Source of the DNA: Chloroflexota bacterium
GTDB taxonomy: Bacteria > Chloroflexota > UBA11872 > VXOZ01
Reading direction: 5' to 3'
Assembly (NCBI GenBank): GCA_965220175.1
Contig: OZ244814.1
Coordinates: 300,992-364,991 of the forward strand
DNA length: 64,000 nucleotides
The notes beneath the pieces were generated by a model, which saw only the letters and a list, made by a program, of their open reading frames with translations, was not told the DNA's origin and made no database searches. The position numbers and the translations under genes were made by a program. Positions 32,080 through 43,105 of this stretch are shown here, one piece after another. The first letter of the stretch is position 1. Each line of letters begins with the position of its first letter.

Positions 32080-33335
32080 AGACCGGGTTGATGGGTAACA
32101 CTTGTTCGGGCTGATAGGTTACACCTAAAGGCATGGAGAATCTTGCAGCAGGAGGATGGCCATGCCGTGGAAGGTGGAAACACTTATGTCTGCTCGGGAA
32201 GAATTTATCGCTCTGGCACTGGCTGACGGGGCGAACATGAGTGAGCTGTGTCGGCGCATGGGGATCAGTCGGAAGACCGGGTACAAGACGCTGCGGCGGT
32301 ACGCGCAGAGTGGTGCAGACGGTCTGCAGGACCGGTCGCACCGCACGCACACGTGTCCGCACCGCACGAGCCGGGAGATGGAGGAACGCATCATCGCGTT
32401 GCGGCTGGCGCATCCCAAGAAGGGCGCGCACGTGCTGCGCAGGATGCTGCAAGACCAGGGGGTGACCGACGTGCCGGCCAAGAGCACGATCCAGGCCATG
32501 CTCAAGCGCAATGGCCTCATCGACCCTGCAGAGAGCGCCAAGCATACTCCCCAGGTGCGCTTTGAGTACCCTGCGCCCAACGACCTGTGGCAGTTGGACT
32601 TCAAAGGGCATTTCAGCATGCAGCACGACCGCTGCCATCCGCTCACGCTCCTGGACGATCATTCTCGCTTCAACCTCACGCTCCAAGCCTGTGCCAACCA
32701 GCGTGGCGAGACGGTGCAAGACCGCCTCACCACGGCCTTTCGCCGCTACGGCCTGCCCCAGGCCATGCTCATGGATAACGGCTCACCCTGGGGCAACGAC
32801 GCCGGTCAGCCCTACACGCCCTTCACCGTCTGGCTCATGCACCTGGGCATCACCGTGCGCCACAGCCGACCCTACCATCCCCAAACCCTCGGCAAGCTCG
32901 AACGCTTCCACCGCTCCCTCAAAAGCGAATTGCTGCAGGGCCGTACCTTCACCGACCTGGAGCACTGCCAACGCGCCTTCGACACGTGGCGTCATTTCTA
33001 CAACTTGGAACGCCCGCACTATGCCCTCGGCCTGGACACTCCCATCAGCCGGTACACGCCCAGTGCACGCTCCTTCCCCGAGACCCTGCCTGCCCTTGAA
33101 TACGACCCCGACGATCAGGTGCGCAGCGTCGACGTCTCCGGCCGCATCTCTTTCCAGGGCAGCAGGCTCCGTGTCGGCAAAGCTTTCACCCACAAACAGG
33201 TCGCACTGCGACCCACCCCAACAGACGGCGTCTGGAACGTGTACTTCTCAAGACAACGCCTAAAGTCCATAGACCTCAGAGAACAAAATGTGTAACCTAT
33301 CAACCCGAACATCTGTTACCTATCAGCCCAGTCTG
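32080..33335 (+). mobile_element. IS481-family insertion sequence (~1.25 kb) with ~40-bp imperfect terminal inverted repeats, inserted into a family D palindromic repeat
   Basis: Left end CCGGGTTGATGGGTAACACTTGTTCGGGCTGATAGGTTACAC pairs with the reverse complement of the right end CTGGGCTGATAGGTAACAGATGTTCGGGTTGATAGGTTACAC (36 of 42 positions). The flanks (CCCTCTCCTGGGGGAG on the left, CAGGGAGAGGGTTAGGGTGAGGGG on the right) are the two halves of a family D repeat. Confidence 0.75.
32156..33295 (+). CDS. IS481-family transposase (DDE integrase core)
   Basis: N-terminal HTH region followed by an rve-type integrase core (LWQLDFKG, MLMDNGSPW, RPYHPQTLGKLERFHRSL). Confidence 0.85.
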   Translation: MAMPWKVETLMSAREEFIALALADGANMSELCRRMGISRKTGYKTLRRYAQSGADGLQDRSHRTHTCPHRTSREMEERIIALRLAHPKKGAHVLRRMLQDQGVTDVPAKSTIQAMLKRNGLIDPAESAKHTPQVRFEYPAPNDLWQLDFKGHFSMQHDRCHPLTLLDDHSRFNLTLQACANQRGETVQDRLTTAFRRYGLPQAMLMDNGSPWGNDAGQPYTPFTVWLMHLGITVRHSRPYHPQTLGKLERFHRSLKSELLQGRTFTDLEHCQRAFDTWRHFYNLERPHYALGLDTPISRYTPSARSFPETLPALEYDPDDQVRSVDVSGRISFQGSRLRVGKAFTHKQVALRPTPTDGVWNVYFSRQRLKSIDLREQNV

Positions 33336-36125: not shown

Positions 36126-37112
36126 ATGGCACAAGTGAATCCTCCAACAAATGAACCTGAAGGGTTCAAGGAAGCGAGCGTACAGCGCACGGCTGTCGAC
36201 CTTGCGCTTCCGGACGATTCAAGAGTCTCAATTCCAGTTACCCACATCTTTGGCCAATGTCCGCGGCCAAGAGTGGTGATTGTGGCCGGTGTGCACGGCG
36301 ACGAGTTGGTTGGACCGCAGGCATTGGTCGAGTTGGCGCGGGAGCTAACCCCAGGCGACTTGCGCGGTACGGTAGTTCTAGTGCCGAGTGCCAATCCACT
36401 GGCCATTGCCGCCGGTCTGCGCACAGCGCCACATGACGACGTGGACCTGAACCGCATCTTACCTGGCAAGCGCGGCGGCTCGGCGACCGAGCGCATTGCC
36501 AACTGTCTCGTCACATCGGTTATTGCTGACGCAGATTGGGTAATTGACCTCCATAGCGCGGGACGGGAGGGCGATCTGCTGCCGCTGAGCGGCTTCCGTG
36601 AGGCGACCGGCGAATGCGCGCGCCGTTCTGCCCTGGCAGCCGCGGCCTTTGGTCTGGAGCACTACTGGATGATGCGCTGGTCCCCCGGCACGCTCTCCAC
36701 GTGGGCCAATCAGCAAGGCATTCCGGCCGTAGGCTGCGAGGTGGGCGGCCGCGGCATGGCTACACGCGAGCAGATCGACCTCTACAAGAAGGGTATGCGC
36801 CGCTGCCTGCGGCACCTCGGCATGCTCGATCCGCCGCTGGAGGTCGCCATGCCGCCCAAGGTCTGGACACAAGAACACCTTTTCGCCCCGTGCGGCGGAC
36901 TGTTGGAATCTCTTGTAACGCTGAGGCAAGATGTTCAGGCCGGGGAAGCACTCGCCCGCGTGCATGATCTTTGGGGGAACGTCTGCGGCGAAATCACCGC
37001 GCCAGAGGACGGCAAGATCCTGCATACTCGCGTTCAGCAGTCAGTAGCAGCGGGTGACAACGTCTTCTGGCTGGGACGCGAGGAAGACAATCCGTTGCAT
37101 TCGTCCACGTAG
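36126..37112 (+). CDS. succinylglutamate desuccinylase / aspartoacylase family (AstE/AspA) zinc deacylase
   Basis: VVIVAGVHGDELVGPQAL zinc-ligand motif and DLHS...E arrangement typical of the AstE_AspA family. Confidence 0.75.
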   Translation: MAQVNPPTNEPEGFKEASVQRTAVDLALPDDSRVSIPVTHIFGQCPRPRVVIVAGVHGDELVGPQALVELARELTPGDLRGTVVLVPSANPLAIAAGLRTAPHDDVDLNRILPGKRGGSATERIANCLVTSVIADADWVIDLHSAGREGDLLPLSGFREATGECARRSALAAAAFGLEHYWMMRWSPGTLSTWANQQGIPAVGCEVGGRGMATREQIDLYKKGMRRCLRHLGMLDPPLEVAMPPKVWTQEHLFAPCGGLLESLVTLRQDVQAGEALARVHDLWGNVCGEITAPEDGKILHTRVQQSVAAGDNVFWLGREEDNPLHSST

Positions 37113-37195
37113 TGCGTCTGTCGGTTACATGCTTCGCTCGAATGAGGACTGCAAGAGAGTGGATGCGGTCATTACTGACGGGGAAACCAACAGGC

Positions 37196-38938
37196 CTAGC
37201 AATCGCTCATGATCGGCTGAGCGCTCTGCGCAACGCGCGCGATGGCGTCCAACTTCTCGCCTATTTCGGGATCGATTTCGTCCTGCGGCACAAATTCGGC
37301 CAACTCGTAGAAGGCTTTCTTGCGCATGAGGTTGGGCAAACTGAGGTGCCGAAAGTAGGCTTCGAACACCGGCCTAAGGAAGTCGTCGCTCGCCTTAATG
37401 TCAGAGTCCCACGGCGAGCCCAAGCCTAGAGTGCGCAACGCTTCTGCGATATTGGCAACGGCTGCGCGCATTGCCTCAAGCCGTCGCGGGACTTCAGCGC
37501 GCGCAAACAAGGGGCCAGGCGCGTCAGACTCCGCCGTACTTTGTGCGTAGGCCTCCAGTGTCGCTTGGGAACAAAGGTAGTTTTCAATCTCGCGCCGCTG
37601 CCAGGTTAGCCGCTCAACCTGACCGGTCTCGGGCGTACCGGAGTCTGGGCGGTCGAAGAGCGCGACGCCTTTTAGATGCGGCAGCGCCTCCCTGAGTCCG
37701 TGAAAGTGATGCGGTACTGCTGAAGCGTTGTTGCCAACGTAGTGCACGTAGGGACGTTCCAGGGCACGACCCGCCTCTGCGTGTCCAAGGCGTCGCGCGA
37801 ATGCCTGTAAGATCGAGAGGTCTGTGGATCCCTCCAAGTAGAGCACCCAGCCCGTCTGCTTCGCCTGATAGTAGTGTTCGAAGCCAATGTCCTTTGGGGA
37901 CTTCAAGAGTTGACTACCCTGGTCGTCGATGCGGTGGGGCTCTCCAATGAACGCGATCACCATATCCTTGCCGGCAGCCTCGTCGAGCAGCACTTCAGAG
38001 TGGCTGGCTGCGATGATCTGGCTACCGCTGGCGGTAGCGGCGTCAGTGATGAGGCGATAGATTTGGCGCTGCCTCAAGATTTCAAGGTGTGCGTCCGGCT
38101 CATCCAGCATGAGCACTGCACCTGGATTGGCATACATATAGGCCAAAATGAGCAGAGTCTGCTGGAGACCCCGTCCGCTGGATGATAGGTCTAGCGTGAC
38201 ATCATGTTCACGATAGCTCATGGCAATCTCACCACGCTCCGTGATGTACCGGGGCGGCTCAATGTGCACACCAAACAAGCTGCGAATCTGAGCAGTTAGC
38301 TCCTGCCAAGCCTCAGAGTGTTCCTCGTAGATACCGTAGCAGAGATTTCGCAATACCTCCGCCGTACGTCCCTCGCCTACACGTACAGTCACCGCCCCAG
38401 GGTCTAGCCGTGTTTCTGTAGCAGCAAGACCGGACATTGGTGGCAAGAACGCAACCTGCACACTGCCAGCCGCTTCTGGTACCGGCATTCTTTCGGCCGT
38501 GCTGGTATTGGTTTCTCGCAATGGGCGGCAATAGAATGATTCCTCGTTGGCGTAGTCAAACTCCAGCCCACAGGTCCACGGTTGATCGTCAGTGACGCCC
38601 TCCACGATGACATCGATCCGCACGTTCTGGGTTTGCTGCTTGCCGTTCTCTATGCGCACGTCTCGCGAATGTAGTCCGTGCCACAAGAGACGTGCACTCG
38701 GCACCGGAATGGCAACAAGGTCTCGTCGATTGACAGTTACACCAGGTCGCTTTTCTGGCGCGCCCTTGCCCCGACGCTTCTCATTCCATCGTTTCAGCCC
38801 AACGTCCCAAAGCGCCAGCGCCTGCATGGCTGAGGTCTTGCCCGAGTTGTTGGGGCCGATGAACGCCACCGGGCTGCCAAGCTCGATCTCCACCTCGTCA
38901 AAGCGCTTGAAGTTGCGGATGGTGAGTTTAGTCAGCAT
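37196..38938 (-). CDS. OLD-family / PARIS-like ABC-ATPase fused to a C-terminal TOPRIM-like (DUF4435-like) nuclease domain
   Basis: Walker A FIGPNNSGKTS at the N-terminus. Walker B VLMLDEPDAHLE about 300 aa downstream (split ABC ATPase as in OLD/AriA/GajA). C-terminal WVLYLEGSTD ... ALFDRPDSG resembles the TOPRIM glutamate and DxD motifs. Start taken at MLTKLTIRNF; the ORF extends to 39016. Confidence 0.6.
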   Translation of the reverse strand: MLTKLTIRNFKRFDEVEIELGSPVAFIGPNNSGKTSAMQALALWDVGLKRWNEKRRGKGAPEKRPGVTVNRRDLVAIPVPSARLLWHGLHSRDVRIENGKQQTQNVRIDVIVEGVTDDQPWTCGLEFDYANEESFYCRPLRETNTSTAERMPVPEAAGSVQVAFLPPMSGLAATETRLDPGAVTVRVGEGRTAEVLRNLCYGIYEEHSEAWQELTAQIRSLFGVHIEPPRYITERGEIAMSYREHDVTLDLSSSGRGLQQTLLILAYMYANPGAVLMLDEPDAHLEILRQRQIYRLITDAATASGSQIIAASHSEVLLDEAAGKDMVIAFIGEPHRIDDQGSQLLKSPKDIGFEHYYQAKQTGWVLYLEGSTDLSILQAFARRLGHAEAGRALERPYVHYVGNNASAVPHHFHGLREALPHLKGVALFDRPDSGTPETGQVERLTWQRREIENYLCSQATLEAYAQSTAESDAPGPLFARAEVPRRLEAMRAAVANIAEALRTLGLGSPWDSDIKASDDFLRPVFEAYFRHLSLPNLMRKKAFYELAEFVPQDEIDPEIGEKLDAIARVAQSAQPIMSDC

Positions 38939-39067
38939 TGGTAACCATCGTGTTCTTTCATTCAGCCTCGCAATTCTGCACTTCGCGGAAGATCGGCTTT
39001 CGCAGCAGTGTACCACTCGGCGCAGGGCGACCGAATGGCGTAGCGACCGCCAAATGCCAAGTCATCG

Positions 39068-39379
39068 TCAAGTCTCATAGATGGGCGTTCTCGTGGCCTC
39101 GACTGCTTCCATGAAGTATGGGTTCCTGATGGCCGACTCGACTACCAAGTCCACCGGCTTGTTGAAAAGCCGTTGCAGAGCTTCCAGCAAACCAAAGTAC
39201 GTGTTGGCGTAGACGCCGGGTGGCAGCGGTTCGAACTCCACCACAAAGTCGAGGTCGCCTGCCGCCGCCAAGTCCCGGCCGATCGCGGCTGAACCAAACA
39301 GGGCAAGCCGCCGGACACGGTAGCGGCGGCAGAGCCGTTCCACATCGGCAGCCTGTTTGCTAATGACCGGGTGAGGCAC
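39068..39379 (-). CDS. minimal nucleotidyltransferase (MNT, Pol-beta superfamily) domain protein
   Basis: RLALFGSAAIGRDLAAAGDLDFVVEF is the GSxxxG...DxD nucleotidyltransferase signature. Probable GTG start at 39379 preceded by GGGAGGG. The longer ORF to 39595 overlaps the purH fragment and is judged an artefact. Confidence 0.6.
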   Translation of the reverse strand: MPHPVISKQAADVERLCRRYRVRRLALFGSAAIGRDLAAAGDLDFVVEFEPLPPGVYANTYFGLLEALQRLFNKPVDLVVESAIRNPYFMEAVEATRTPIYET

Positions 39380-39461
39380 GTCGCCCTCCCGCCTGTCTAG
39401 GCAAGAAAATAACTTTAGTTGCTCCTGCTCACCGTCATCTTGGTCAGGTGCACGGCAGGTG

Positions 39462-40034
39462 TCACGTGACCTTCTTGAAATACCCCGCAATATGCGTGTC
39501 GTAGTCGGCGGTGTGTTGAAAGGCCTTGGCGGCGAGGCGGGTGCGCAGGGCGGAGTCAACCTGCCCGCCGGTGAGCGCGCTGAGCACCGGAGCATAGTCG
39601 GCCGGGTCTACCACCACGAGCACGGAATCCGCGTTCTTGGCGGCGGCGCGAATGAGCGTCGGGCCGCCGATGTCGATGTTTTCCACGATCTCGTCGTGCC
39701 CGGCTCCGCTGCGCAGAGTTTCGACGAAGGGATAGAGATTCGAGGCAACTATCTGCACCGGCGCGATGGCGTGGTCCCGCAACGTTTGCATGTGTACCGG
39801 GTCGTCCTGCCGCGCCAGGATGCCGGCATGCACCACCGGGTGAAGCGTCTTTACGCGGCCGTCCAGGATTTCGGGAAAGCCGGTCACGTCGCTGATGCCG
39901 GTGACGGAAACTCCCGCCGCTACCAGCGCTCCCTGCGTGCCGCCGGTGGAGACGATCTCCCAGCCGAGCTTGGCCAGGCCCTGACCGAATTCTACGATGC
40001 CGGATTTATCGAATACGCTAAATATGGCGCGCAT
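39462..40034 (-). pseudogene. purH: purH 5' fragment (IMP cyclohydrolase / MGS-like N-terminal domain only, 190 aa); the AICAR transformylase part is absent
   Basis: Translation aligns residue-for-residue with the first ~200 aa of PurH (VSDKSGIVEF, GRVKTLHP, NLYPF, DIGGPTLIRAAAKN, HTADYDTHIAGYF) and then stops. The position where the C-terminal ~320 aa should be encoded is occupied by the MNT and ATPase-TOPRIM genes. Confidence 0.5.
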
Positions 40035-40527
40035 GCGTTTCAGTTCCTCTTTGCGTACCTGAGTAAGTTGATTGCCGCCCCGTACTTGCTTCGGGGCAAA
40101 CCCTTTACGGGAAGGAGAATAGCAAAACCGGCGGTTGGTCCCGTCAGACTACCCCTGTAGCTGTGATTATACACGTGTGCGTGCGGTTACTCTGATGCAC
40201 GCATCCCACGCGCTAGGCCGACCGAAACGGGATTGGTTCGCACAGTAAAAGCATGTCCTTTTGCTACCAGTCCCCAAGCAACGCCCGGACTCGACGACGT
40301 ATGTCGCACACAGTAAGATAGGCGAGGACTGCCGCGCCTCCCGGTGTGCAGCGGAGATTGTCCAAGTTTGGTCATGTCCCAGCGCTCAGTCTCCAGCTCG
40401 CAATGCTTGAGACAGTGCTCTACGGCACCCGCAAACGCGACTGACGAATGGTTGCCTCTCGCTTGGCGCTCTTCGCGCTTGCACGAGAATTCCCATTGCA
40501 AAGACAACCCCCATCGAGGAATTAACC

Positions 40528-41794: not shown

Positions 41795-43105
41795 AAGTTA
41801 ATTTAGGGACCTGCAGCAAGGTAGTCCTGCCACGGTGTGCCGCGCCGGACGATGGCGTTGAGTTGCAGGAGCATTTTGCGCATTACCGCCACCAGGGCGA
41901 CTTTGCCCGGCTTACCCCGCTGGCGCAGACCTTGGTAGAAGCGCTGCAGGCTGTTGTCCTGGCGGATAGCAGACAAGGCGGCGAGGTAGAGAGCGCGGCG
42001 CACGACGCCCCGGCCGCCGCGGATGGCGCGATAGCCGCGCTGCTGTCCGCTGTCCCGTGACCACGGTGCGAGACCTGCCAGCGCGGTCAAGGCCTTACCG
42101 GAGAGCTGACCGAGTTCGGGGAGGAAGGCGGTGAGGATGGCGGCGGTCAAGTCGCCGACGCCGCGCATGCTGCCGAGCAGTTGGGCGCGCTGGCGCAGGT
42201 GCTGGCTGCGCTGCAGGGTCGCTTGATACTGCTGGTCCAGCCGTTCTATCTCCTTATCCAGCCAGCGGATGTGGCGTGTGACGGAGCATTGGCTAACGGA
42301 GGAGAGGCCTTTGTCCAGACGGTTCTGTTCCTGCACACGTTGCTTGACGAGTTGCTGGCGGCGCTGCAGCACATCTTGGAGCTGTTCACGTTCCGGGGAG
42401 GGCGCCGGAAGGTCCTCCAGCGCCATCACAGCGCCGTACCGGGCGAGCACCTGCGCATCCAGGCGATCGGTCTTCGCTTCCTTGCCACAGGCGCGGGCAA
42501 AGGCCCGCACCTTGTTGGGATGCGCCACCTCCACTGAGGGCAGCGCCGTGTGCAGACGCTTTACCACTTGGCGCTCATACCCGCCGGTCGGCTCACACAC
42601 TGCCACCGTGACGCCTGCAGCTTGCAGCCAACGCACCAGGGCGGTGATACCCACCGTGGTGTTCGCGAAACGCCGCACGGGGCCGCCCGCTACCGACACA
42701 TCGAGTTGCGCTTTCCCAACATCGATCCCTGCCACAACTTTCATCCCGCTCTCCTTCCTGGCATACTGGTGGTGTCCTCCACACTTGCAGATGCGGGCCA
42801 TTGGTCTGCCCAGGTATCTGTTCGGAGCGACATTCTGGCGCGAGGGGTGTCGTACTCCGGCGCGATGCAGCCAGGCCACTGCCTCGGCTCACCTAATGAC
42901 GGACGACGCGCCCCTCGCGTTGCCACTCAACTTCGCTCATTTGCCCGCCTTTTTCAACATACAAATGACGGAAAGAGGAGCGCGCGAGGCCTTGCAAGTG
43001 CGAATCGACAGCAGATTCTGCCAACGAATTACTCAACACTTGCACCAATGACCAAAACGTCAACTCTCCCTGTTGGAAGGCGATTCCATCAACGCATTGC
43101 ACAAC
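41795..43105 (-). mobile_element. IS110-family insertion sequence (~1.3 kb, approximate boundaries) flanked by family A repeat modules
   Basis: DEDD-type transposase gene inside. No clear terminal IRs, as expected for IS110. A family A half-module (TTCCCGCTTTCACGGGAATC) lies at 43113..43132 on the far side. Confidence 0.5.
41803..42744 (-). CDS. IS110-family transposase
   Basis: MKVVAGIDVGKAQLDVSV start with GGAAGGAGAG RBS. C-terminal region typical of IS110/IS1111 transposases. Confidence 0.85.
   Translation of the reverse strand: MKVVAGIDVGKAQLDVSVAGGPVRRFANTTVGITALVRWLQAAGVTVAVCEPTGGYERQVVKRLHTALPSVEVAHPNKVRAFARACGKEAKTDRLDAQVLARYGAVMALEDLPAPSPEREQLQDVLQRRQQLVKQRVQEQNRLDKGLSSVSQCSVTRHIRWLDKEIERLDQQYQATLQRSQHLRQRAQLLGSMRGVGDLTAAILTAFLPELGQLSGKALTALAGLAPWSRDSGQQRGYRAIRGGRGVVRRALYLAALSAIRQDNSLQRFYQGLRQRGKPGKVALVAVMRKMLLQLNAIVRRGTPWQDYLAAGP

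What the first reader, a model, noticed from the sequence alone, without database searches (positions are those of the whole stretch)
37196..40034. MNT plus OLD/PARIS-like ATPase-TOPRIM fusion sits where the 3' two-thirds of purH should be
Two co-oriented genes (39068..39379 and 37196..38938) form a candidate defence-type module.

The first is a ~104-aa minimal nucleotidyltransferase with the GSxxxG...DxD motif. The second is a ~580-aa protein with a split ABC ATPase (Walker A FIGPNNSGKTS, Walker B VLMLDEPDAHL) followed by a TOPRIM-like C-terminal domain (YLEGSTD, LFDRPD).

That layout is the architecture of OLD-family nucleases, and of AriA-AriB (PARIS) when those two are fused into one polypeptide.

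MNT domains are normally paired with HEPN partners (HepT/MntA-type toxin-antitoxin). No HEPN gene is present here. An MNT preceding an OLD/PARIS-like ATPase-nuclease is a combination I do not recognise as described, so the pairing is inference.

The module abuts a purH gene that retains only its N-terminal 190 codons. That is consistent with insertion of an accessory island.
Basis: partly seen in the sequence, partly recalled or inferred. Interest (0 to 1): 0.8.

Follow-up and report, generated by a model that had tools for sequence, protein, structure and literature searches.

The report
Stand-alone OLD/PARIS-like nuclease beside orphan antitoxin
The large gene is a real, divergent relative of known ATPase-nuclease phage-defence proteins, but the small gene next to it is a leftover antitoxin from a different toxin-antitoxin pair, and the short purH gene is old and was not cut by this insertion.

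Summary
All three ORFs and the quoted motifs are at the stated coordinates.

The proposed MNT-ATPase module is not supported. In sister Chloroflexota genomes the same MNT (83% identical) sits at the same locus, overlapping a HepT toxin gene, as a conventional MntA/HepT pair. In the window and in locus L004, homology to hepT stops about five codons in. The ATPase gene follows, with its own conserved upstream sequence. In about 160 other loci of the ATPase family, no partner gene is conserved.

The purH claim is also not supported. The 190-aa purH-N is under strong purifying selection (dN/dS about 0.1). It is equally short in genomes where the site is empty or carries other cargo.

The site between purH-N and astE is a small hotspot with four alleles: empty, ATPase, MntA-HepT, and MntA-ATPase. 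A defence role for the ATPase is inferred from its frequent position inside restriction-modification operons.

The parts
37196..38938 (-). Gene for a 580-aa single-chain ABC ATPase-TOPRIM protein. It has OLD-family Class 1 architecture and an AriB-like nuclease domain.
   Evidence: ORF. Pfam AAA_15/AAA_21. More than 8000 homologues. AlphaFold model pLDDT 90. Foldseek top hits are TsOLD, PtuA, GajA and Eco8 OLD.
37934..38938 (-). ABC ATPase region, residues 1 to about 335. Motifs: Walker A 38831-38863, signature LSSSGRGLQQ 38159-38188, Walker B 38084-38116, H-loop AASHSEV 37991-38011.
   Evidence: G28, G33, K34, Q260 and P281 are invariant across 51 relatives at 29-83% identity; D279, E280 and H313 are conserved in at least 90% of them.
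37199..37936 (-). C-terminal TOPRIM plus helical domain, residues 335-580. Conserved acidic residues: E369 and D373 (YLEGSTD, 37820-37840), D429 (LFDRPD, 37643-37660), E450/E452 (REIENY, 37577-37594). K515 lies at 37388-37402.
39007..39015 (-). TGGTACACT, an extended -10-like element (TGnTACnAT) 69 nt upstream of the ATPase start. It suggests the ATPase has its own promoter; this is an inference.
   Evidence: This is the only conserved block in otherwise unalignable upstream regions of five syntenic loci, with or without the MNT. The strict sigma-70 scan did not call it.
39064..39078 (-). Remnant of the first five codons of hepT (ATG AGA CTT GAC GAT), overlapping the MNT stop codon. Homology to hepT-bearing sister loci ends here.
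   Evidence: Alignment of the window and L004 with L083 and L087. Translation. Intact HepT in L087.
39068..39379 (-). Orphan MntA-type minimal nucleotidyltransferase, 103 aa. It is the antitoxin half of a HepT/MntA pair.
   Evidence: Pfam NTP_transf_2. PADLOC PDC-S09 9e-28. Orthologues are paired with HepT at the same locus. Catalytic G29/S30/D42/D44/D77 are kept, but S41G changes a 96%-conserved site.
39462..40034 (-). purH-N, a stand-alone 190-aa gene for the IMP-cyclohydrolase (MGS-like) domain. It forms the left border of the hotspot.
   Evidence: Pfam MGS. The same stop codon is found in L001, L003, L004 and L005. dN/dS 0.07-0.16. It is 201 aa in the empty-site allele L092.
36126..37112 (+). 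AstE/AspA-family gene, convergent with the ATPase. It forms the right border of the hotspot.
   Evidence: Pfam AstE_AspA_cat. Syntenic in all alleles.

Best explanation
**The three genes are unrelated neighbours.**

1. **The 580-aa gene.** It encodes a stand-alone, single-chain ABC-ATPase-TOPRIM nuclease of the OLD/PARIS kind. It has Class 1 architecture and an AriB-like nuclease domain. It is an accessory gene, most likely an abortive-infection type phage-defence effector. The proposed mechanism is inferred by analogy with PARIS and OLD proteins. The ATPase head would sense a phage cue, plausibly an anti-restriction factor, given how often the family sits inside restriction-modification operons. 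Through ATP-dependent rearrangement or dimerisation it would license the two-metal TOPRIM site (E369, D373, D429, E450/E452) to cut nucleic acid. I favour tRNA/RNA cleavage as in AriB over DNA nicking as in Class 1 OLD, but only weakly.

2. **The MNT.** It is the MntA antitoxin of a HepT/MntA type VII toxin-antitoxin pair that occupies the same site in sister genomes. Here hepT has been replaced, from about its fifth codon on, by the ATPase gene and its own upstream region. This leaves an orphan antitoxin that is probably drifting.

3. **purH-N.** It is an old, selected, stand-alone IMP-cyclohydrolase-domain gene.

The short gap between convergent purH-N and astE is a cargo hotspot with four observed alleles: empty, ATPase, MntA-HepT and MntA-ATPase.
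For: **Shown: architecture of the ATPase-nuclease**
- ATPase motifs and Pfam/PDB matches.
- Confident models: pLDDT 90 full length, 92 for the C-terminal domain.
- The two best Foldseek hits are also AriB.
- 7 of 33 relatives' C-terminal domains hit PADLOC AriAB and 1 hits AriB. None hits an Old or GajA model.
- Acidic residues are invariant across 29-83% identity. Their spacing is similar to AriB E26/D30/D88/E90/E122 (PMC11464382).

**Shown: the ATPase is an accessory, single gene**
- It is present or absent among close relatives at one site.
- No neighbour is conserved across 82 genome loci or 80 metagenome loci.

**Shown: defence context**
- Type I R-M genes flank it in 8 of 82 loci.
- In the second sample, an SNF2/NOV_C helicase lies upstream in 8 loci and a DUF1156 methylase flanks it in 7, a type III-like N6_N4 methylase is adjacent in 6, and type I genes in 2.

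**Shown: the MNT belongs to a HepT/MntA pair**
- HepT-paired orthologues occupy the same locus in L083, L084, L087 and L091.
- The homology breakpoint lies just inside hepT.
- L004's MNT is nearly identical to HepT-paired copies (dS 0.026).
- The orphan copies carry changes at highly conserved positions: S41G in the window, L78P in L004.
- An upstream element of the ATPase is conserved regardless of MNT presence.

**Shown: purH-N is old and selected**.

**Inferred**
- The defence function.
- The trigger.
- The nucleic-acid target.
- The promoter.
Against: - No experiment supports defence, and no phage or plasmid copy exists in the GenBank phage or PLSDB collections. Only 2 IMG/VR contigs carry the family.
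- The window protein's nuclease domain is invisible to every sequence model tried, so the fold assignment rests on a predicted structure.
- The family is unusually conserved for a defence gene: 63-87% identity across many phyla and dN/dS about 0.08.
- Orphan MNTs of three different families lie directly upstream of family members in independent loci: window/L004, L010 (overlapping the start codon) and L069. This is more than I would expect by chance and is not fully explained.
Confidence: 0.72

Rival explanations
1. One reading: the MNT and the ATPase-TOPRIM protein form a functional two-gene defence or toxin-antitoxin-like module, for example with the MNT nucleotidylylating and restraining the nuclease.
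For: - The two genes are co-oriented and 130 nt apart in the window.
- The same pairing occurs in L004 and in one more contig.
- Different MNT families lie directly upstream of family members in L010 (11-nt overlap with the start), L051 and L069.
Against: - The window's MNT is orthologous to MntA copies that overlap a HepT gene at the same locus.
- The ATPase lacks any MNT in L001, L003 and L005 and in 0 of 60 informative loci of the second sample.
- The ATPase keeps its own conserved upstream element.
- The orphan MNTs show substitutions at near-invariant sites.
Confidence: 0.06
2. The protein works as a Class 1 OLD nuclease acting on DNA, nicking or degrading replicating phage DNA, rather than as a PARIS-like tRNA nuclease.
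For: - The best PDB sequence match for the ATPase is the Class 1 TsOLD (8.6e-11; with a family profile 4.8e-18).
- It has single-gene architecture.
- Characterised Class 1 OLDs cut DNA (PMC10568477, PMC12392090).
Against: - Only PARIS models (AriAB, AriB) detect relatives' C-terminal domains.
- The Pfam OLD-like_TOPRIM model hits only 2 of 33 relatives, weakly.
Confidence: 0.3
3. The orphan MNT is kept under selection as an anti-addiction antitoxin. It would neutralise HepT toxins from the MntA-HepT allele or from mobile elements circulating in the same population.
For: - MntA-HepT and MntA-ATPase alleles coexist in very close relatives: L004 against L083/L087, MNT dS 0.026, purH-N dS 0.15.
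- The window MNT keeps all catalytic residues and nearly all conserved positions.
- dN/dS is 0.34, below 1.
Against: - dN/dS is higher than between HepT-paired copies (0.14-0.15).
- S41G next to the catalytic Asp in the window and L78P in L004 hit 96-100% conserved sites.
- No experiment bears on this.
Confidence: 0.25
4. The ATPase-TOPRIM protein is a housekeeping DNA-repair or chromosome-maintenance factor (RecF/SMC/SbcC-like), not a defence gene.
For: - Very strong purifying selection (dN/dS about 0.08) and high cross-phylum identity.
- Weak SMC_N, RecF and Rad50 matches to the ATPase head.
Against: - Presence/absence polymorphism at one site among close relatives.
- Variable genomic contexts.
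- Repeated embedding in R-M operons.
- Nearest structural relatives are all defence nucleases.
Confidence: 0.05

Closest known systems
PARIS (AriA ATPase + AriB DUF4435/TOPRIM nuclease; OLD Class 4), including the fused AriAB forms
   Same: - ABC ATPase of the AAA_15/21 kind joined to a TOPRIM nuclease.
- The only PADLOC models that detect relatives' C-terminal domains are AriAB and AriB.
- The acidic residue pattern E-x3-D ... D ... E resembles AriB E26/D30/D88/E90/E122.
- Fused single-polypeptide PARIS is documented.
   Different: - The window protein is 580 aa, against a 694-position AriAB model, and matches only about 190 of those positions at 49.9 bits.
- Its C-terminal domain alone hits no PARIS, DUF4435 or AriB sequence model.
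- Whether it forms an AriA-like scaffold, senses Ocr-like triggers or cuts tRNA is unknown.
Class 1 OLD family nucleases (P2 Old, Thermus scotoductus OLD, Vibrio cholerae OLD)
   Same: - A single gene encoding an N-terminal ABC ATPase and a C-terminal TOPRIM. That is the published definition of Class 1.
- TsOLD is the best PDB sequence match and the top Foldseek hit of the full model.
   Different: - The TOPRIM domain is not recognised by Pfam OLD-like_TOPRIM and is structurally nearer to AriB.
- The canonical DxD is reduced to one invariant Asp (D429-R430).
- Many members lie inside R-M operons, whereas Class 1 OLDs are described as not lying near other defence genes.
AbiL and other R-M-linked ATPase + TOPRIM-like pairs (AbiLi/AbiLii, MADS MAD3/MAD4)
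   Same: - The ATPase head hits PADLOC AbiLi (4.6e-13) and mad3 (1.2e-15).
- These systems share the ABC ATPase plus TOPRIM logic.
- They also share association with methylation and restriction loci.
   Different: - Those are two-gene or multi-gene systems; this is one polypeptide without a fixed partner.
- The matches cover only the ATPase.
HepT/MntA type VII toxin-antitoxin system (for the MNT)
   Same: - A minimal nucleotidyltransferase with GS...DxD.
- Orthologues overlap a HepT gene that carries the Rx4H motif.
   Different: - In the window the HepT partner is gone except for about 5 codons.
- The NCBIfam MntA_antitoxin score is below cut-off (27.6 against 60).

Membership tests
OLD family nucleases (Class 1) | N-terminal ABC ATPase domain with Walker A, signature, Walker B and H-loop | tested here: met
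   Pfam AAA_21 5.9e-19 and AAA_15 2.2e-18. TsOLD 6p74 matched at 8.6e-11, and at 4.8e-18 with a profile. Motifs read directly from the sequence. Motif residues are invariant or at least 90% conserved in 51 relatives.
OLD family nucleases (Class 1) | C-terminal TOPRIM domain | tested here: met
OLD family nucleases (Class 1) | Conserved acidic residues for two-metal catalysis | tested here: met
   E369, D373, D429 and E450 are invariant, and E452 nearly so, across relatives down to 24% C-terminal-domain identity. The second Asp of the usual DxD is not conserved.
OLD family nucleases (Class 1) | Single-gene system with no fixed partner (no UvrD-like helicase, no retron RT) | tested here: met
   No conserved neighbour in 82 + 80 loci. 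Contexts vary.
OLD family nucleases (Class 1) | ATPase and nuclease activity; anti-phage phenotype | not testable with these tools
   Requires biochemistry and phage assays.
PARIS (AriA/AriB or fused AriAB) | DUF4435-type TOPRIM nuclease recognisable by the Pfam or PADLOC AriB/AriAB models | tested here: inconclusive
   The window's C-terminal domain gives no hit. The full protein matches AriAB over 190 of 694 positions at 49.9 bits. Among relatives, 7 of 33 hit AriAB, 1 hits AriB and 1 hits DUF4435. AriB is the best structural match.
PARIS (AriA/AriB or fused AriAB) | AriA-type ATPase with coiled-coil insertions that builds a hexameric scaffold sequestering AriB | not tested
   Only a monomer model was made. 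PADLOC AriA models match just the N- and C-terminal ATPase motifs.
PARIS (AriA/AriB or fused AriAB) | Activation by anti-restriction proteins; tRNA cleavage | not testable with these tools
   Known for E. coli PARIS. Here only the R-M neighbourhood is suggestive.
HepT/MntA type VII toxin-antitoxin (for the MNT) | Minimal nucleotidyltransferase with GS...DxD and a third catalytic Asp | tested here: met
   G29, S30, D42, D44 and D77 are present. Pfam NTP_transf_2.
HepT/MntA type VII toxin-antitoxin (for the MNT) | Adjacent HepT (HEPN, Rx4-6H) toxin gene | tested here: not met
   No HEPN or HepT anywhere in the window; only about 5 hepT codons remain. The feature is met in orthologous loci L083, L084, L087 and L091. 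So the window copy is an orphan of such a system, not a complete system.
HepT/MntA type VII toxin-antitoxin (for the MNT) | NCBIfam MntA_antitoxin equivalog cut-off | tested here: not met
   27.6 bits against a cut-off of 60.
Bifunctional PurH | Both the IMP cyclohydrolase (MGS-like) and the AICAR transformylase domains | tested here: not met
   Only the MGS domain and 59 of 311 AICARFT model positions are present. NCBIfam purH scores 257.8 against a cut-off of 402. No AICARFT remnant in the window.

The most novel reading that the evidence does not exclude
The recurrent orphan nucleotidyltransferases directly upstream of this ATPase-TOPRIM family are not debris. They belong to three unrelated MNT families: window/L004, L010 (overlapping the start codon) and L069. 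On this reading, some lineages have recruited an MNT as a nucleotidylylating brake or sensor for an OLD/PARIS-like nuclease. That would be a hybrid between type VII toxin-antitoxin logic and ATPase-nuclease immunity.
Probability: 0.06. Interest if true: 0.7.

Novelty: new member of a known kind. Interest (0 to 1): 0.3.

Why it matters
**The headline claim does not hold.** A new MNT-OLD defence module that truncated purH would have been notable. It is not what the evidence shows.

**What remains is modest but useful.**
- Current Pfam and PADLOC models miss its nuclease domain.
- It spreads across many phyla at 63-87% identity.
- It is often embedded in restriction-modification operons. That placement fits a PARIS-like backup that fires when restriction is inhibited.

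**The locus is also a clean natural example of cargo swapping.** At a micro-hotspot, a toxin gene was exchanged for another nuclease while its antitoxin stayed behind.

**It is a caution for annotation.** Adjacency alone is weak evidence for a module.

Tried and rejected
- **Pfam on the C-terminal 254 aa at E up to 10:** no family.
- **PDB sequence searches.** Searches with the protein and with a 51-sequence profile aligned only the ATPase head. A profile of the C-terminal domain found no TOPRIM, AriB or OLD chain, only chance helical matches such as cullin-5 and colicin immunity protein.
- **PADLOC on the window's C-terminal domain:** nothing.
- **Consensus promoter/terminator scan of 36900-40300:** no more hits than in shuffles, and nothing upstream of the ATPase. 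The promoter idea rests only on a conserved TGnTACnAT block.
- **Search for attachment sites or flanking repeats.** I aligned the empty site (L092) with the cargo ends. The sequences were not alignable and no repeats were evident.
- **Search for a purH 3' remnant or another AICARFT gene in the window:** none.
- **Search for HepT, HEPN or a second MNT in the window:** none.
- **GenBank phages:** no match. **PLSDB plasmids:** only remote ATPase-head matches below 27% identity.
- **Cluster-name look-up of ten homologues:** one uninformative name, a misannotation as a transport ATPase.
- **Literature look-up of MAG names to test a sponge origin.** It confirmed only that the SB0662 sample series is sponge-associated.
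- **Considered and rejected: a remnant HEPN in the 130-nt MNT-ATPase spacer.** It is too short, and homology to hepT ends after about 15 nt.
Full report
**1. Observation**

The minus strand carries three co-oriented ORFs at the stated coordinates:
- 37196..38938, 580 aa
- 39068..39379, 103 aa, GTG start
- 39462..40034, 190 aa

The mechanical ORF of the large gene extends to a GTG at 39016. More than 100 homologues of 577-585 aa begin at the MLTKL start at 38938. The quoted motifs translate exactly as written.

Family assignments:
- Pfam places the large protein in AAA_21/AAA_15, the small one in NTP_transf_2, and the third in MGS plus the first 59 positions of AICARFT_IMPCHas.
- NCBIfam recognises the third as the N-terminal 190 residues of PurH.

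All three are real genes. Across four syntenic genomes dS is about 1, and dN/dS is 0.07-0.09 for the ATPase and 0.07-0.16 for purH-N.

**2. What the 580-aa protein is**

*The ATPase head is clear.*
- Walker A, ABC signature (LSSSGRGLQQ), Walker B and H-loop are present, with their key residues invariant or at least 90% conserved across 51 relatives at 29-83% identity.
- The best PDB sequence match is the Class 1 OLD nuclease of Thermus scotoductus, 6p74 (8.6e-11; 4.8e-18 with a family profile). PtuA, GajA and Rad50/SMC heads follow.

*The C-terminal 246 residues are invisible to sequence models.*
- No Pfam family at E up to 10.
- No PADLOC model.
- No TOPRIM, AriB or OLD chain in a profile search of the PDB.

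*AlphaFold models are confident.* The full-length model has pLDDT 90. The C-terminal domain alone has pLDDT 92 and pTM 0.88.

*Structure comparisons place the domain with AriB and OLD TOPRIMs.*

| Comparison | Result |
|---|---|
| Foldseek, C-terminal domain | two best hits are AriB, weakly (E 0.027) |
| Foldseek, full model | TsOLD, PtuA, GajA, Eco8 OLD |

*Sequence links through divergent relatives point the same way.*
- 7 of 33 C-terminal domains hit PADLOC AriAB, and one hits AriB. None hits an Old or GajA model.
- A few hit Pfam DUF4435 or OLD-like_TOPRIM.

*The conserved residues fit a TOPRIM site.*
- The family's invariant C-terminal residues are E369 and D373 (LEGxTD, at the end of strand 1 and the start of the next helix), D429 (end of strand 3) and E450. 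E452 in ExENY is nearly invariant.
- Their order and spacing are similar to the AriB metal-binding residues E26, D30, D88, E90 and E122 (PMC11464382). This mapping is an inference from spacing, not from a residue-level superposition.

**3. Distribution and context of the family**

The family is large.
- More than 8000 word-sharing homologues.
- 535 clusters at 50% identity with E below 1e-30.

The best 80 genome loci are 63-87% identical. They span Chloroflexota, Latescibacterota, Acidobacteriota, Gemmatimonadota, Alpha-, Gamma- and Deltaproteobacteria, Nitrospinota, Nitrospirota, Actinomycetota and Rhodothermales. All are MAGs.

The family is rare on known mobile elements. It is absent from GenBank phages and PLSDB plasmids. 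It is present on only two IMG/VR contigs.

No neighbour is conserved, either in those loci or in a second sample of 80 metagenome loci from a divergent branch (39-49% identity to P0197).

Subsets sit inside restriction-modification operons:
- Type I hsd genes in 8 of 82 loci.
- In the second sample, an SNF2/NOV_C helicase lies upstream in 8 loci and a DUF1156 methylase flanks it in 7. A type III-like N6_N4 methylase lies 5 nt upstream in 6, and type I genes occur in 2.

By the published definition, a single gene with an N-terminal ABC ATPase and a C-terminal TOPRIM is a Class 1-type OLD family protein (PMC12392090). Fused PARIS (AriAB) is also documented.

**4. The MNT**

The MNT hits PADLOC PDC-S09 (9e-28) and, below cut-off, NCBIfam MntA_antitoxin.

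*Decisive evidence comes from sister genomes.*
- Its 83%-identical orthologue P0311 lies in the same locus in several Chloroflexota contigs: 2-Hacid_dh, purH-N, MNT, then AstE, then peptidase M20.
- There it overlaps by 11 nt with a 115-aa gene that Pfam calls HepT-like (79 bits) and that carries the HEPN motif RNILIH.
- A more distant genome (L091) has the same pair.

*The breakpoint is sharp.* The window and L004 are collinear with these loci through the MNT stop codon and the first five or so hepT codons (ATGAGACTTGA...). Homology then ends, and the ATPase upstream region follows.

*The ATPase upstream region is its own.* It contains the only block conserved among all five ATPase-bearing syntenic loci, TGnTACnAT, 69 nt before the start codon. 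The block is present whether or not an MNT is there. I read it as a promoter, but this is untested.

*Other points.*
- The ATPase occurs without the MNT in L001, L003 and L005.
- L004's MNT is almost identical to HepT-paired copies (dS 0.026), so the two alleles coexist among very close relatives.
- The orphan copies carry substitutions at 96-100% conserved positions, S41G in the window and L78P in L004. Their dN/dS is higher (0.34 against about 0.15).

The MNT is therefore a conventional MntA antitoxin that has lost its toxin, not a partner of the ATPase.

**5. purH**

- The 190-aa gene ends at the same stop codon in L001, L003, L004 and L005.
- It is 190-201 aa in the MntA-HepT alleles.
- Critically, it is 201 aa in L092, where nothing lies between purH-N and astE.
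- About 25 clusters of 190-201-aa orthologues exist.
- A 195-aa relative in another lineage sits in a purF-purM operon.
- dN/dS of about 0.1 shows that the short gene is maintained.
- It stops at the boundary of the IMP-cyclohydrolase domain (established knowledge of PurH domain structure).
- No AICARFT sequence is present in the window.

So the module does not sit where the rest of purH should be. The shortening is old and independent of the present cargo.

**6. Synthesis**

The gap between the convergent genes purH-N and astE is a micro-hotspot with four observed alleles:

| Allele | Loci |
|---|---|
| Empty | L092 |
| ATPase | L001, L003, L005 |
| MntA-HepT | L083, L084, L087 (intact HepT); L085 and L086 (fragmented hepT calls); L091 |
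| MntA-ATPase | window, L004, one further contig |

The window allele is best read as a replacement of hepT by the ATPase cassette.

Function is inferred. The protein is likely an abortive-infection nuclease whose ATPase head senses a phage cue and licenses the TOPRIM site. The R-M neighbourhoods and the AriB-like nuclease make a PARIS-like logic attractive, meaning a response to anti-restriction factors with an RNA/tRNA target. DNA cutting as in Class 1 OLDs remains a serious rival.

**7. Unexplained**

Orphan MNTs of two further, unrelated families lie directly upstream of family members.
- In L010 the MNT overlaps the ATPase start by 11 nt, and no HEPN is nearby.
- In L069 the MNT is preceded by a roughly 150-nt duplicate of the ATPase 5' end at about 93% identity.
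- In L051 and L060 the MNTs belong to HEPN-MNT pairs inside type I operons.

Three or four independent events in about 140 informative loci is more than a naive expectation. It may simply reflect the abundance and decay of MNT-HEPN modules in defence islands. None was seen in the second sample. I keep a small probability for a functional link.

**8. Verdict**

- The ATPase-TOPRIM protein is a new, divergent member of a known kind.
- Interest is modest.

Noticed in passing
window 39462-40034; L001, L003-L005, L083-L087, L091, L092; L088/L089 4001-4588: A stand-alone 190-201-aa PurH N-terminal (IMP cyclohydrolase) gene is conserved under purifying selection in this Chloroflexota lineage. A 195-aa relative sits in a purF-purM operon elsewhere, followed by a 373-aa protein with no Pfam hit. 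Where the AICAR transformylase activity is encoded is unknown.
   Followed up: partly
L003-L082: The ATPase-TOPRIM family is 63-87% identical across at least ten phyla, all in MAGs. Several MAG names (RHO1/RHO3, CAR4, SB0662 bins) look like sponge-microbiome series, and SB0662 bins are listed as sponge-associated in PMC7883664. This suggests recent cross-phylum transfer within one habitat. The habitat was not verified for most loci.
   Followed up: partly
L069 5998-6658: A roughly 150-nt duplicate of the ATPase 5' end (about 93% identical, lacking the start codon) precedes a 105-aa MNT gene. The MNT is followed after 152 nt by the intact ATPase, all downstream of hsdR. The event that produced this arrangement is unexplained.
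   Followed up: partly
L010 5660-6011: An HI0073-like MNT with no HEPN partner overlaps the ATPase start codon by 11 nt, between accB and a sulfatase gene. It is closely related to the MNT of the HEPN-MNT pair in the type I R-M locus L051.
   Followed up: partly
window 41803-42879 (-) and 32156-33295 (+): An IS110-family transposase (DEDD_Tnp_IS110 + Transposase_20) lies between the 2-hydroxyacid dehydrogenase and the methyltransferase gene. An IS481-family transposase (rve + LZ_Tnp_IS481) lies upstream of the polysaccharide deacetylase gene. The called genes of syntenic loci L001, L091 and L092 show no transposase between the dehydrogenase and methyltransferase genes, so the IS110 element at least looks like a window-specific insertion.
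   Followed up: partly
L037 3088-8875; L060 4233-5872: In two type I R-M loci the ATPase is accompanied by further defence-island-like genes: DUF4365, an unannotated protein of about 380 aa, and in L037 a second, shorter AAA_21 ATPase immediately downstream.
   Followed up: partly
L149, L151, L187, L190, L199, L200, L204, L208 (second sample): A divergent branch of the family is embedded between an SNF2/NOV_C helicase of about 1200 aa and a DUF1156 methylase of about 960 aa. This is an R-M-like system in which the ATPase-TOPRIM gene may be a regular component.
   Followed up: partly
window 38938-39078 (-): From the retained hepT start codon, a 40-codon ORF with no similarity to HepT beyond its first 3-5 codons runs across the putative ATPase promoter. 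It is probably meaningless read-through of the junction.
   Followed up: no
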